This document shows positions 9,909 through 14,649 of a stretch of DNA of 64,000 bases, in pieces (position 1 is the first letter of the stretch; the number at the start of each line of letters is the position of its first letter). The DNA is from the human T2T-CHM13v2.0 reference genome, Homo sapiens: assembly GCF_009914755.1 (NCBI RefSeq), contig NC_060925.1. The stretch is one strand, 5' to 3'. The position numbers and the translations under genes are program-made. The notes under the pieces were generated by a model. It was not told the origin of the DNA. It worked only from the letters and a program-made list of their open reading frames with translations, and did not search any database.

Positions 9909-11915
9909 CTGAAAAGGAACAGGGGGTAAAAATCACATGCAAATGTAATTCAAAAGTTAAAATTAAATAAAGAGATAAAAAATCAGTCAACAAATACATA
10001 TTAATCACCTGCTATGTTAGGTACAGTCTAGCCACAAAGTGACTGGTAAATACATTACCATTCTCAAAGAGATTATGTTAGCGTGGGGGAAAAAGACTAG
10101 AACAGACAAAAGCATACTTGCAAATAGGGCTAATACTCTGAAGAACATGAACTATGTACAAGAAGGAGGTCAGAAAATACCTCCATATAAAGGTGACATT
10201 TGAAAGCCTTAAATGATGAAAAGAAGGACAGTCCTGTGAAGTTCTAGGGGAAAAATTATCCATTTAATCCTGCACTATAAAGAATTCACCACAGTTGAAT
10301 ATCATATTCTCTGAGTCAGTCAAAAGCACTGACTAAACACTTACTGTAAAACACAAAAATCTGTGTCCTTGAGGAATCTTACAATGGGGAAAAAACTGGA
10401 TGGATATAAAAGAGTCTGGCAACATTACTAACACTATCATCATTATTACATGTTACGAACTGTTCTATCTCTACAGAAAAGCTAATGGTTTCAGGCTTTT
10501 GTGCTATGAATTATAAATATTTCTCAATGTCAAGCAAATGGGAATTAAATATAAAACTTAGGAAAATCAAATATAAAATACCAGCACTCTTATGTAGGCT
10601 AAAAATCATAGCTGTTCATTTGGAAGTATAAACAAACAACTCAAGACTTTGTTAATTATTTCCACATACAATATATAATAAAGTACAAAAGCAAATGAAT
10701 TTAACTACAGGAGACATACACATAATTGCAAGTCATAAGGAAAGGGAGGAATGAATTGAAGAGCTAAGAGCAGGTGGTAATTGTATGCATGCCCTTTCAG
10801 ATCTCTACAGTTGTAAAACGTGTGCTTTTCCACTGCAGTTCCAGGTTCTAGCCAAAGTATGCCACCCTTTTTTCAGAGGCCTACATCTCACTAAAACTTT
10901 TCACTTAAAAAGAGCTACCACCATAGGCAGGGTCACCATTCTGAAGCTGCCACTTCAAAACAGTTTGCAGCTCAGCCATATTATCTAACTCTGGGCTTCA
11001 TGAATCCTTAATTCCAACTTTCTGACCTCACAGCTTGCAATTATTTGATGCCGAGGACGGTGTCTGTGCTATGGCAAATAGATGTCAAATAATTGCAGGT
11101 TCTCTCATTATGTGCATACTTTGGGTTCAGTTAATGTACCACTGATGAAATATAATCTAGCTGGACTCCAGGATTTCTAGGTTAACCACCTGATCCTGCC
11201 AACTCATGCTCTGTGGGCTAGCAGCATAAATTAAGCTGTTTAATGGGCCCAAGAGACAACTGTAGCCATGCTGGTCTTTCAGCAGTGTACCTGCTGCTAT
11301 TTTTATCTCATATATTTTATCTCATTACAAATAAAATATACCCATATTCTTGCTTTGGTTTTTTATGCCTTGATCAGTCAGTTCATCATGGGACAGTCCA
11401 CAGAACACAATCAGTGGTCAAATCTATACTGCTAACAAAAAACTTTTTTGGCTGAACATAGGATTTCCATAGAACAAGCCTGTAAGAAGCTTATTTTTTT
11501 TTCAGGTTTACAGTTCTTAAATCCTGTTGCATGATTCTAAAAGAAAAATCTTGAGTGTGCTGAAGCACCTAGGTAATAACTGTCTTTATGTCTTTGCACT
11601 ACTACATAGCCTATATTAATGCTTTGCACCACACGTTATTTTCTAAAAGCTGAAAAAATGAAACAGAGCTACATCATACCCTTGCCTCTTGGCATGTAGT
11701 GACCATCACAGTCATTGGACTGTCAGGCTTTTCTTTGGGTGGAAGGAAAAAACCACAGCCACTGGACTGAACTTTGGTAAGGTCTACATAGATGAGACTG
11801 CAGATATCCCTCCGCCCATTTCAACTACAAAAGCTCCACTTCATTTTATTTACTGGGTTTTTGTGTAAAATTTTAATTGAAGAAAGGGATACATGATTAA
11901 AAGAAAAATATTAAA

Positions 11916-12244
11916 TTTTTTTTTTTTTTTTTTTGAGAAAGCCTTCAATCTTTAAAATGTTCCTGGGCAATGTGGGATGGAGGTAGAGGAAATATTTTTT
12001 CCTGTAGTACCTTAGAAGGCAGGAGAAAAAGAGCCATTGCCAAAACCAGAAAGGCCAGAAAGATCTCCCGTGTTAGTGTTAGCAATAGAATTTCCAAAGC
12101 CTCACCAGCTCCCTCCTGCCCATAAGCCAGGGAACAGCTTCTGCCAACCTGATCGATTCTTTGCCTTTGCATTTTTCTTTTTTTTTTTTTATGTTACCAG
12201 AAAATAAGGATCATTTTATTGTTTTCCTTCCAATCATCTTACTT
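11916..12244 (-). other. Putative L1 3'-transduced DNA: two segments, each closed by its own poly(A)
   Basis: Poly(T) at 11916-11934 and about 12171-12190; lies inside the TSD of the adjacent L1. Confidence 0.75.
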
Positions 12245-14290
12245 TTTCTTTTTTTTTTTTATACTTTAAGTTTTAGGGTACATGTGCACATTGTGCAGGT
12301 TAGTTACATATGTATACATGAGCCATGCTGGTGTGCTGCACCCACTAACTCGTCATCTAGCATTAGGTATATCTCCCGATGCTATCCCTCCCCCCTCCCC
12401 CGACCCCACAACAGTCCCCAGAGTGTGATATTCTCCTTCCTGTGTCCATGTGATCTCATTGTTCAATTCCCACCTATGAGTGAGAATATGCGGTGTTTGG
12501 TTTTTTGTTCTTGCGATAGTTTACTGAGAATGATGATTTCCAATTTCATCCATGTCCCTACAAAGGACATGAACTCATCATTTTTTATGGCTGCATAGTA
12601 TTCCATGGTGTATATGTGCCACATTTTCTTAATCCAGTCTATCATTGTTGGACATTTGGGTTGGTTCCAAGTCTTTGCTATTGTGAATAATGCCGCAATA
12701 AACATACGTGTGCATGTGTCTTTACAGCAGCATGATTCATAGTCCTTTAGGTATATACCCAGTAATGGGATGGCTGGGTCAAATGGTATTTCCAGTTCTA
12801 GATCCCTGAGGAATCGCCACACTGACTTCCACAATGGTTGAACTAGTTTACAGTCCCACCAACAGTGTAAAAGTGTTCTTATTTCTCCACATCCTCTCCA
12901 GCACCTGTTGTTTCCTGACTTTTTAATGATTGCCATTCTAACTGGTGTGAGATGGTATCTCATTGTGGTTTTGATTTGCATTTCTCTGATGGCCAGTGAT
13001 GATGAGCATTTTTTCATGTGTTTTTTGGCTGCATAAATGTCTTCTTTTGAGAAGTGTCTGTTCATGTCCTTCGCCCACTTTTTGATGGGGTTGTTTGTTT
13101 TTTTCTTGTAAATTTGTTTGAGTTCATTGTAGATTCTGGATATTAGCCCCTTTGTCAGATGAGTAGGTTGCGAAAATTTTCTCCCATTTTGTAGGTTGCC
13201 TGTTCACTCTGATGGTAGTTTCTTTTGCTGTGCAGAAGCTCTTTAGTTTAATTAGATCCCATTTGTCAATTTTGTCTTTTGTTGCCATTGCTTTTGATGT
13301 TTTAGACATGAAGTCCTTGCCCGTGCCTATGTCCTGAATGGTAATGCCTAGGTTTTCTTCTAGGGTTTTTATGGTTTTAGGTCTAACGTTTAAGTCTTTA
13401 ATCCATCTTGAATTGATTTTTGTATAAGGTGTAAGGAAGGGATCCAGTTTCAGCTTTCTACATATGGCTAGCCAGTTTTCCCAGCACCATTTATTAAATA
13501 GGGAATCCTTTCCCCATTGCTTGTTTTTCTCAGGTTTGTCAAAGATCAGATAGTTGTAGATATGCGGCGTTATTTCTGAGGGCTCTGTTCTGTTCCATTG
13601 ATCTATATCTCTGTTTTGGTACCAGTACCATGCTGTTTTGGTTACTGTAGCCTTGTAGTATAGTTTGAAGTCAGGTAGTGTGATGCCTCCAGCTTTGTTC
13701 TTTTGGCTTAGGATTGACTTGGCGATGCGGGCTCTTTTTTGGTTCCATATGAACTTTAAAGTAGTTTTTTCCAATTCTGTGAAGAAAGTCATTGGTAGCT
13801 TGATGGGGATGGCACTGAATCTGTAAATTACCTTGGGCAGTATGGCCATTTTCACGATATTGATTCTTCCTACCCATGAGCATGGAATGTTCTTCCATTT
13901 GTTTGTATCCTCTTTTATTTCCTTGAGCAGTGGTTTGTAGTTCTCCTTGAAGAGGTCCTTCAAGTCCCTTGTAAGTTGGATTCCTAGGTATTTTATTCTT
14001 TTTGAAGCAATTGTGAATGGGAGTTCACTCATGATTTGGCTCTCTGTCTGTTGTTGGTGTATAAGAATGCTTGTGATTTTTGTACATTGATTTTGTATCC
14101 TGAGACTTTGCTGAAGTTGCTTATCAGCTTAAGGAGATTTTGGGCTGAGACAAAGGGGTTTTCTAGATATACAATCATGTCGTCTGCAAACAGGGACAAT
14201 TTAACTTCCCTTTTCCTAACTGAATACCCTTTATTTCCTTCTCCTGCCTAATTGCCCTGGCCAGAACTTCCAACACTATGTTGAATAGGA
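12245..14290 (-). mobile_element. Young L1 (L1PA2/PA3-like): 3' half of ORF2, 3'UTR and poly(A); frameshifted
   Basis: ORFs 13124-14032 and 12463-13065 translate to L1 ORF2p C-terminus; 3'UTR reads GATGACGAGTTAG (GAG, not the L1HS-Ta ACA). Confidence 0.95.
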
Positions 14291-14578
14291 AATCAATAAA
14301 TGTAATCCAGCATATAAACAGAGCCAAAGACAAAAACCACATGATTATATCAATAGATGCAGAAAAAGCCTTTGACAAAATTCAACAACGCTTCATGCTA
14401 AAAACTCTCAATAAATTAGGTATTGATGGGACGTATTTCAACATAATAAGAGCTATCTATGACAAACCCACAGCCAATATCATACTGAATGGGCAAAAAC
14501 TGGAAGCATTCCCTTTGAAAACGGGCACAAGACAGGGATGCCCTCTCTCACCACTCCTATTCAACATAGTGTTGGAAG
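14291..14578 (+). mobile_element. Inverted 5' segment of the same L1 (ORF2 RT region: [12 protein letters not shown]...[13 protein letters not shown])
   Basis: L1 sequence flips strand at about 14290; covers the ORF2 stretch immediately upstream of the minus-strand part. Confidence 0.93.
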
Positions 14579-14649
14579 AAAAATATTTAAAAATTTTAAC
14601 GCAGTAAAGTTCTGATAAGAAATCTTTCAAAAAAGCAAAATAATGCTAC

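What the first reader, a model, noticed from the sequence alone, without database searches (positions are those of the whole stretch)
11901..14600. Young L1 carrying two serial 3' transductions, a record of three retrotransposition generations
Seen: read on the minus strand, the L1 3'UTR and its poly(A) (about 12245-12260) are not followed by a TSD. Instead come about 54 bp of other DNA with AATAAA (12215-12220) roughly 24 nt before a second poly(A) (about 12171-12190). Then come about 235 bp of apparently unique DNA and a third poly(A) (11916-11934). Only then does the duplication appear: AAGAAAAATATT-AAA-TTTT at 11901 versus AAGAAAAATATT-TAAAAA-TTTT at 14576, differing by a 3-nt indel. The right copy ends at TTTT/AA (14594-14599), the L1 endonuclease consensus. 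Established: L1 read-through of its weak poly(A) signal mobilises downstream flanks. Inference: 12191-12244 and 11935-12170 were copied from the flanks of a grandparent and a parent L1 elsewhere in the genome.
Basis: partly seen in the sequence, partly recalled or inferred. Interest (0 to 1): 0.8.

Follow-up and report, generated by a model that had tools for sequence, protein, structure and literature searches.

The report
Old L1 with two stacked transductions
A dead, partly inverted L1 retrotransposon in an EIF4G3 intron carries two short pieces of DNA picked up from chromosomes 11 and 10 on successive jumps, a tidy but ordinary example of a well-known process.

Summary
Read on the minus strand, one pair of target-site duplications (14597-14576 and 11919-11901; 12 nt exact, 19 of 22 with one 3-nt gap) encloses this order: L1, A12, a 58-nt tag, A13, a 243-nt piece, A19. 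The 5' copy sits at a perfect TTTT/AA endonuclease site.

In the window's own assembly each piece has exactly one other copy. The tag matches chr11 (62 of 62 nt). The 243-nt piece matches chr10 (239 of 245 nt). Each match starts at a purine-rich site of the kind L1 targets, and each stops at a polyadenylation site in its source. The best reading is therefore two serial 3' transductions, chr11 to chr10 to chr1 (confidence 0.85).

- Neither source locus holds an L1 in this assembly, so the grandparent and parent elements are inferred, not seen.
- The L1 is not a human-specific young element. It has the GAG 3'UTR marker of L1PA2 or older, about 0.7% private change and a broken ORF2.
- Its 5' end is a 288-nt inverted ORF2 segment that overlaps the sense part by 24 nt.

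Multi-generation transductions are already in print, so interest is low.

The parts
14594..14599 (+). L1 endonuclease site TTTT/AA on the strand that primes reverse transcription
   Evidence: + strand 14594-14599 = TTTTAA. On the L1-sense strand this reads TT followed by the TSD start AAAA.
14576..14597 (-). 5' copy of the target-site duplication, AAAATTTTTAAATATTTTTCTT. Its last 3 nt (CTT, 14578-14576) could equally be L1-derived, which gives a 3-nt microhomology with the inverted segment.
   Evidence: (family D2). Inverted-repeat arm I1 runs to 14578.
14291..14578 (+). 5'-inverted L1 ORF2 segment (288 nt) whose sense strand is the window + strand. It is the L1 sequence lying directly upstream of the sense part and overlaps that part by 24 nt.
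   Evidence: In 10 of 11 other L1 copies the whole 288 nt maps at 94.4-98.6% identity, and in the 11th (L009) 240 nt map. Each match ends 24 nt inside the start of the sense-part match, for example L006 1237-1524 versus 1501-3526. Arms 14267-14290 and 14555-14578 are 24 nt, 100% complementary.
12261..14290 (-). Sense-oriented L1 body: the 3' part of ORF2 plus the 3'UTR, about 2030 nt. It is non-Ta (GAG triplet), and the ORF2 remnant is split over several frames.
   Evidence: 40 scored hits of 9243 candidates, the best other copy 98.6% identical.; longest open stretches 334 and 246 aa on the minus strand. for the meaning of GAG.
12249..12260 (-). [quoted passage not shown] The last two A's also match the chr11 source.
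12191..12248 (-). First (older) transduced tag, 58 nt, copied from G000:C11:83554026-83554087 (minus strand). It contains AATAAA at 12220-12215.
   Evidence: 62 of 62 nt identical including the flanking A's. At the source the match stops at ...AACATAA, followed by ttctgtatgttt.
12178..12190 (-). [quoted passage not shown]
11935..12177 (-). Second (younger) transduced piece, 243 nt of otherwise unique DNA copied from G000:C10, about 51091752-51091996 (+ strand).
   Evidence: 239 of 245 aligned positions identical, and all 6 differences are transitions. This is the only other genomic copy. At the source the match ends at a CA, 22 nt after a TTTAAA begins, and is followed by 35 nt with 83% G+T, the 99.6th percentile of this window.
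11916..11934 (-). [quoted passage not shown]
   Evidence: period 1, 19 copies, 100% matches.
11901..11915 (-). 3' copy of the target-site duplication, TTTAATATTTTTCTT. Its leading AAAA merges with A-tract 3 (11919-11916).

Best explanation
This is a single L1 insertion of the L1PA2-like age class, made by target-primed reverse transcription at a TTTT/AA site in an EIF4G3 intron. Its RNA template had been extended twice at the 3' end by read-through transcription, which is two serial 3' transductions.

Inferred history:
1. A grandparent L1 sat on chr11 directly upstream of AAGAAAAAGTAAG... Its transcript ran past the L1's own weak signal and was cleaved about 24 nt after an AATAAA in the flank.
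2. That RNA (L1, tag, poly(A)) inserted on chr10, antisense in a neutral-ceramidase intron, directly upstream of AGAAAAATGC... This was the parent.
3. The parent's transcript ran through both earlier signals. It was cleaved 243 nt into chr10 DNA at a CA, downstream of TTTAAA and upstream of a strongly GU-rich stretch.
4. That RNA inserted here. Twin priming produced the inverted 288-nt 5' segment with a 24-nt overlap, so the copy was dead on arrival.

What is shown: the anatomy, the single enclosing TSD, the two source loci, their boundaries and the inversion. What is inferred: that an L1 once sat at each source locus. Both loci are empty in this assembly, so the progenitors were presumably unfixed alleles that were lost.
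For: 1. One TSD pair encloses everything and there is none after the internal A tracts. The flanks share 12 nt exact, or 19 of 22 with one gap, against 4-nt and 5-nt shared words after A-tracts 1 and 2. By chance, 9 of 20,000 random window pairs shared 12 nt or more.
2. Each piece has exactly one other genomic copy, on a different chromosome (2 candidates, 2 scored; 2 candidates, 2 scored). The source DNA is continuous through both boundaries, so the direction of copying was into chr1.
3. Both matches end where an RNA 3' end is expected. The tag has AATAAA 24 nt before its end. The chr10 piece has TTTAAA starting 22 nt before its end, ends at a CA, and is followed by 35 nt of 83% G+T, the 99.6th percentile.
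4. Both matches begin at purine-rich words, AAGAAAAAG and AGAAAAATG. Only 2.2% of positions in this window, both strands, meet the same criterion. They resemble the TSD starts tabulated for a human transduction family, such as AGAATGAG..., AAGAAGG... and GAAAG... (PMC6425141 Table 3, passage read).
5. The order of the pieces fits chronology, and the divergences are compatible with it: tag 0 of 62, piece 6 of 245, L1 body 16 private substitutions in 2313 compared columns.
6. The L1 end lacks AATAAA (GTAT + A12), whereas 6 of 10 near relatives end GTATAATAAA. In the element, the tag's AATAAA is followed by A13 and purine-rich DNA with only 20% G+T. Both would favour read-through.
7. Multi-generation transduction cascades and transduction families are documented (PMC13009371, passage; PMC6425141, passages).
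Against: - Neither source locus carries an L1 directly upstream in this assembly. BLAST of the L1 body against both 3-kb source loci found nothing at chr10. At chr11 it found only 68-77% matches to old L1 debris lying downstream of the tag in its orientation.
- No sibling insertion carrying the tag alone, or the tag plus the piece, exists in the assembly. The search tool warns that it skips very common words.
- The TSD copies differ by a 3-nt gap (TTTTTAAAT versus TTTAAT).
- The inferred nick sites at the two source loci are T-rich but not the exact TTTT/AA consensus.
- No outgroup empty site could be examined.
Confidence: 0.85

Rival explanations
1. The composite is a tripartite chimera made in one insertion event by reverse-transcriptase template switching, or by RNA ligation. 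Reverse transcription would start on a polyadenylated chr10 RNA, jump to the poly(A) end of a chr11 RNA, then jump to the poly(A) end of an L1 RNA. No L1 would ever have sat at chr10 or chr11.
For: - Both source loci are empty in this assembly, and no siblings exist.
- The A-rich 5' boundaries could equally serve as microhomology for a T-rich cDNA end pairing with the next RNA's poly(A).
- Template switching by ORF2p is an accepted route to L1 chimeras (10.1101/2025.02.02.635956, passages; PMC2104539, a double template jump in a fungus, search listing only).
Against: - Described L1 chimeras carry the foreign RNA fused to the 5' side of the L1, which is the primary template. Here the foreign pieces lie 3' of the L1, and each is separated from its neighbour by a complete A tract.
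- It needs two jumps, each landing at the far end of a poly(A) tail.
- It needs two independent polyadenylated transcripts from unremarkable DNA: one antisense in an intron 215 nt from a ceramidase exon, one in diverged repeat debris. Each would have to be truncated to 58 and 243 nt exactly at purine-rich words.
Confidence: 0.08
2. The composite arose by nested, independent insertions: a small retrocopy of the chr10 fragment landed first, and L1-containing insertions later landed next to it.
For: Three A tracts in a row could in principle mark three separate events.
Against: Each independent event should have its own TSD. The 30 nt after A-tracts 1 and 2 share only 4-nt and 5-nt words with the 5' flank, while the sequence after A-tract 3 shares 12 nt exact, or 19 of 22. 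The pieces abut the preceding A tracts with no intervening target DNA.
Confidence: 0.03
3. The pieces are filler DNA captured during double-strand-break repair or another non-retrotranspositional rearrangement that patched chr10 and chr11 DNA next to an L1.
For: None specific. It is considered only because the progenitor L1s are not seen.
Against: Both pieces are in L1-sense orientation. Each ends at a polyadenylation site and is followed by a non-templated A tract absent from its source. The whole composite has an endonuclease-site TSD.
Confidence: 0.02

Closest known systems
Multi-generation (serial) L1 3' transduction and L1 transduction families
   Same: The structure is L1, poly(A), tag 1, poly(A), tag 2, poly(A) inside one TSD, with each tag mapping to a different locus. 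This is the pattern described for a chrX to chr15 to chr11 cascade in PMC13009371 (passage), and the logic used to rebuild a 14-member family in PMC6425141 (passages). The tag lengths of 58 and 243 nt fall within the 7-997 nt range reported for polymorphic L1 transductions (PMC9311842, abstract).
   Different: The published cases read here are L1HS-Ta elements with living or polymorphic progenitors. This one is an older non-Ta copy whose two progenitor loci are both empty in this assembly and which has no siblings, so it is the only trace of its lineage there.
Twin-priming 5'-inverted L1 insertions (Ostertag and Kazazian 2001; paper not held, so cited from recall and from the description in PMC2837659)
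   Same: Two fragments of the same L1 lie in opposite orientation inside one TSD pair. The inverted one comes from directly upstream of the sense one. There is 3-nt microhomology (CTT/AAG) where the TSD meets the inverted segment.
   Different: PMC2837659 describes an internal deletion at the inversion point. Here the two fragments overlap by 24 nt, which is a duplication. From recall, small duplications are also reported in the original paper; I could not check this.
L1 chimeric insertions formed by template switching or RNA ligation (U6/L1 and related)
   Same: Several RNA-derived pieces lie in the same orientation inside one TSD.
   Different: In those chimeras the foreign RNA is on the 5' side of the L1 and is fused to it directly. 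Here the foreign DNA is 3' of the L1, and each piece follows a full A tract.

Membership tests
L1 3' transduction (serial) | The L1 3' end with its A tract is followed by non-L1 DNA that ends in a further A tract, in L1 orientation. | tested here: met
   Seen twice: A12, 58 nt, A13, 243 nt, A19.
L1 3' transduction (serial) | A single TSD at an L1 endonuclease site flanks the whole composite, and there is none after the internal A tracts. | tested here: met
   12 nt exact, or 19 of 22 with one 3-nt gap. TTTT/AA lies at 14594-14599. Only 4-5-nt shared words follow A-tracts 1 and 2. The chance control gave 9 of 20,000.
L1 3' transduction (serial) | Each transduced segment maps to a unique locus elsewhere, and the match stops at a polyadenylation site there. 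| tested here: met
   The sources are C10:51.09 Mb (239 of 245) and C11:83.55 Mb (62 of 62), each the only other copy. The signals are AATAAA, and TTTAAA with a CA cleavage site and a GU-rich downstream stretch.
L1 3' transduction (serial) | At the source locus the segment lies immediately 3' of the progenitor L1. | tested here: inconclusive
   No L1 lies upstream at either source locus in this one haploid assembly. Published progenitors include non-reference insertions (PMC9311842, PMC6425141). Absence in one haploid assembly therefore does not exclude a lost allele, but the progenitors are not shown.
L1 3' transduction (serial) | An empty orthologous site exists in a species that diverged before the insertion. 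| not testable with these tools
   No primate genome is held. A paralogue-based 'virtual empty site' failed: the 5'-flank repeat ends at about 14672 and the 3' flank is unique.
Twin-priming 5'-inverted L1 | Two segments of one L1 lie in opposite orientation within one TSD, and the inverted one comes from directly upstream of the sense one. | tested here: met
   All 11 other L1 copies examined place the inverted piece directly upstream of the sense part with a 24-nt overlap. The arms are 24 nt and 100% complementary.
L1HS / Ta (human-specific 'young' L1) | An ACA (Ta) or ACG (pre-Ta) triplet in the 3'UTR. | tested here: not met
   The window reads ...GATGACGAGTTAGTGGG..., that is GAG. PMC7026601 states that GAG indicates L1PA2 or older.
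Template-switch L1 chimera | Foreign RNA is fused directly to the 5' side of the L1 segment. | tested here: not met
   The foreign pieces are 3' of the L1 and each is preceded by an A tract. The definition is as read.

The most novel reading that the evidence does not exclude
No L1 ever sat at the chr10 or chr11 loci. The composite would then be a 3'-side tripartite chimera made in a single TPRT event: ORF2p started on a short polyadenylated chr10 RNA and jumped twice, each time onto the poly(A) tail of another RNA, last of all an L1 RNA. That would be a class of L1 chimera with foreign RNA downstream of the L1, which mimics serial transduction and would inflate transduction-based counts of source elements.
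Probability: 0.07. Interest if true: 0.5.

Novelty: new member of a known kind. Interest (0 to 1): 0.22.

Why it matters
This is a clean textbook fossil. One dead L1 copy records two earlier source loci (chr11, then chr10) of a lineage that has otherwise vanished from this genome, and the same insertion also shows twin priming.

It illustrates two general points:
- A transduced AATAAA leaves its downstream element behind, so it is a weaker terminator in the next generation. This would favour stacking of transductions. The point is an inference, not a test.
- Source elements of old transductions can be absent from even a complete assembly. This limits progenitor tracing and leaves template switching formally open.

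It changes no current understanding. It moved 301 nt of chr10 and chr11 DNA into an EIF4G3 intron, in the gene's sense orientation, with no evidence of any effect on the gene.

Tried and rejected
- A 'virtual empty site' from paralogues of the flanks. The 5' flank is an old repeat, but its copies cover only window 14950 to about 14672 and stop about 75 nt short of the insertion (43 matches, 40 of 5016 candidates scored). The 3' flank is single-copy. No test was possible.
- A search for siblings or progenitors carrying the tag or the piece. None exist beyond the two source loci.
- A search for a close relative that might share the lineage. The nearest L1 (C23:6.49 Mb, 98.6%) shares only 1 otherwise-rare base with this element, no more than four other copies do. 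It has no transduction at its 3' end. No kinship is shown.
- Nested independent insertions, rejected on TSD evidence.
- Three early papers on transduction and twin priming (PMC311219, PMC156586, PMC310862) are not held. I therefore could not check whether this locus is already listed in the early genome-wide transduction surveys, or what their supplements say.
- The first literature search returned only general L1 papers.
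Full report
**What is there.** All coordinates in this paragraph are read on the minus strand.
- The region begins with the flank ...ACTGCG, then TT, then AAAATTTTTAAATATTTTTCTT (14597-14576).
- L1 sequence runs from there to ...CTTAAAGTAT at 12261.
- Next come A12 (12260-12249), 58 nt of other DNA (12248-12191) with AATAAA at 12220-12215, A13 (12190-12178), 243 nt of other DNA (12177-11935) and a pure A19 (11934-11916).
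- The region ends with TTTAATATTTTTCTT (11915-11901) and unique flank.

The two flanking words align as 19 of 22 with one 3-nt gap and share 12 nt exactly. The 30 nt after the first and second A tracts share only 4-nt and 5-nt words with the 5' flank. Among 20,000 random pairs of 30-nt windows at the same spacing in this 64-kb window, 9 shared an exact word of 12 nt or more. On the + strand, 14594-14599 reads TTTTAA, the L1 endonuclease consensus.

14291-14578 is L1 ORF2 in the opposite orientation.
- In the 11 other L1 copies fetched from the same genome, this 288-nt stretch maps directly upstream of the sense part and overlaps it by 24 nt. It maps in full in 10 copies and over 240 nt in L009. 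In L006, for example, it maps at 1237-1524 and the sense part at 1501-3526.
- The overlap appears in the window as a perfect 24-nt inverted repeat, 14267-14290 and 14555-14578.
- The last three bases of the 5' TSD (CTT) are also the first three of the inverted segment.

This is the architecture of twin priming as described in PMC2837659 (passages), where the nicked top strand primes on an internal site of the same RNA. That paper speaks of an internal deletion, whereas here there is a 24-nt duplication. I recall that the original twin-priming paper also reports duplications, but it is not held.

**Where the two pieces come from.** The window's own assembly (3.1 Gb, 24 contigs) could be searched.
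- *The 243-nt piece.* It has exactly one other copy, at C10:51.09 Mb on the + strand. My alignment gives 239 of 245 identical positions, and all six differences are transitions.
- *The tag.* A 92-nt query spanning the tag has exactly one other hit, at C11:83.55 Mb on the minus strand, 62 of 62 identical.
- *Direction of copying.* At both loci the surrounding DNA is continuous through the ends of the match, so they are the donors.
- *chr10 boundaries.* The match starts at tgtgt|AGAAAAATGC. It ends at ...GGCTTTCCCA|tgtttgttgtttagtgtatgattttgttttctg. That end is a CA, 22 nt after the start of a TTTAAA hexamer. It is followed by 35 nt that are 83% G+T, the 99.6th percentile of 35-nt windows in this 64-kb window.
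- *chr11 boundaries.* The match starts at ggtgc|AAGAAAAAGTAAG. It ends at ...AACATAA|ttctgtatgttt, 24 nt after the AATAAA.
- *Start sites.* Both purine-rich start words meet a criterion (at least 6 A and at least 8 purines in 9 nt) that only 2.2% of positions in this window meet. They look like the TSD starts listed for a published transduction family (PMC6425141 Table 3).
- *Context of the chr10 piece.* It lies about 215 nt from an exon on the opposite strand that matches Pfam Ceramidase_alk (E = 1.8e-14). The gene name ASAH2 is my recollection, not a tool result.

**What was not found.** Neither source locus has an L1 where the model needs one.
- Reading 1.5 kb on each side, and a BLAST of the L1 body against both loci, gave nothing at chr10.
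- At chr11 the BLAST gave only 68-77% matches to old L1 debris, downstream of the tag in its orientation.
- No other element in the assembly carries the tag or the piece.

The grandparent and parent are inferred, not observed.

**Age.**
- The 3'UTR diagnostic triplet is GAG. PMC7026601 (passage) gives ACA for Ta, ACG for pre-Ta and GAG for 'L1PA2 or older'.
- The nearest genomic copies are 97.5-98.6% identical, with one at 94.8%.
- Against 11 relatives, the element has 16 private substitutions in 2313 compared columns, or 0.69%: 12 in the sense part and 4 in the inverted part.
- The ORF2 remnant is split into open stretches of at most 334 and 246 aa.
- The piece differs from its source by 2.4%.

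Using recalled figures for ape divergences (human-chimpanzee about 1.2% pairwise), this places the insertion at or somewhat before the human-chimpanzee split. The uncertainty is wide because the counts are small. The element is young for an L1 in general, but it is not a human-specific young L1.

**Mechanism.** The best reading is two serial 3' transductions followed by a twin-primed insertion (confidence 0.85).
1. An L1 on chr11 read through into its flank, and the RNA was cleaved after the flank's AATAAA.
2. That RNA inserted on chr10.
3. The chr10 copy read through its own end and through the tag's AATAAA. The RNA was cleaved 243 nt downstream at a TTTAAA, CA, GU-rich site.
4. That RNA inserted here.

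Two details would favour read-through, though neither is tested.
- The L1 body ends GTAT + A12, which gives only a TATAAA-type hexamer. Six of 10 near relatives end GTATAATAAA.
- The tag's AATAAA lost its native downstream sequence on retrotransposition. It is now followed by A13 and purine-rich DNA with 20% G+T.

Loss of both progenitors is plausible for unfixed alleles of this age. A 6-kb insertion 215 nt from a ceramidase exon may also have been selected against, which is inference only.

**Rivals.**
- *Template switching or RNA ligation among three polyadenylated RNAs in one event (0.08).* The empty source loci keep it alive. Against it, the described chimeras carry the foreign RNA on the 5' side of the L1, fused directly (10.1101/2025.02.02.635956). 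It would also need two jumps onto the ends of poly(A) tails, and two suitable transcripts from unremarkable DNA.
- *Nested independent insertions (0.03).* This fails on the TSD evidence.
- *Repair-mediated patching (0.02).* This does not explain the orientation, the polyadenylation-site ends or the untemplated A tracts.

**Comparison with what is known.**
- 3' transduction by L1 and its use to trace progenitors are established (PMC9311842, abstract and passages).
- Transduction families are documented (PMC6425141).
- An explicit 'multigenerational L1 transduction cascade' with two stacked tags is in print (PMC13009371).

This locus is another instance of that kind. It differs only in being older, in coming from a lineage with no other survivor in this genome, and in combining the stacked tags with a 5' inversion. 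I could not check whether the early genome-wide transduction surveys already list it, because those papers are not held.

**Verdict.** Novelty and interest are low.

Noticed in passing
window 12249-12264 (minus strand): The L1 body ends GTAT + A12. It therefore has no AATAAA, only a TATAAA-type hexamer across the border between the L1 and the A tract. Six of 10 nearest L1 copies end GTATAATAAA. A single T>A change would account for this; whether it predates the insertion is unknown.
   Followed up: partly
window 12156-12220 (minus strand): The transduced AATAAA left its native downstream sequence behind at chr11 (ttctgtatgttt...). In the element it is followed by A13 and purine-rich DNA with 20% G+T in 35 nt. 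This is a simple reason why a transduced signal would terminate less well in the next generation.
   Followed up: partly
L002 1127-1276 (minus strand), about 215 nt from the chr10 source piece at L002 1492-1737: An exon matching Pfam Ceramidase_alk (E = 1.8e-14) lies on the opposite strand next to the chr10 source site. The inferred parent L1 would have sat antisense, close to that exon's acceptor side.
   Followed up: partly
window 14291-14578: All 4 private substitutions in the 288-nt inverted segment are transversions. In the 2025-nt sense part, 9 of 12 private substitutions are transitions. The numbers are too small to interpret.
   Followed up: no
window 11901-14599: The composite lies in the sense orientation of EIF4G3, which is on the minus strand, in the intron between exons 9783-9908 and 21494-21666. 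It places an AATAAA and three A tracts on the gene's sense strand.
   Followed up: no
window 14672-14950: An older interspersed repeat lies here: 42 matches elsewhere in the genome, mostly at 71-86% identity, with 40 of 5016 candidates scored. It ends about 75 nt before the insertion site and is not in the hub's list of masked stretches.
   Followed up: partly
L004 about 1680-1960 (minus-strand reading): An Alu-like element lies about 120 nt upstream of the chr11 source tag. Diverged L1-like sequence (68-77% to the window's L1) lies downstream in the same orientation. NCBI's repeat mask in the window starts at 12208, inside the tag, which would fit the tag being old L1 debris. The Alu call is by eye.
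   Followed up: no
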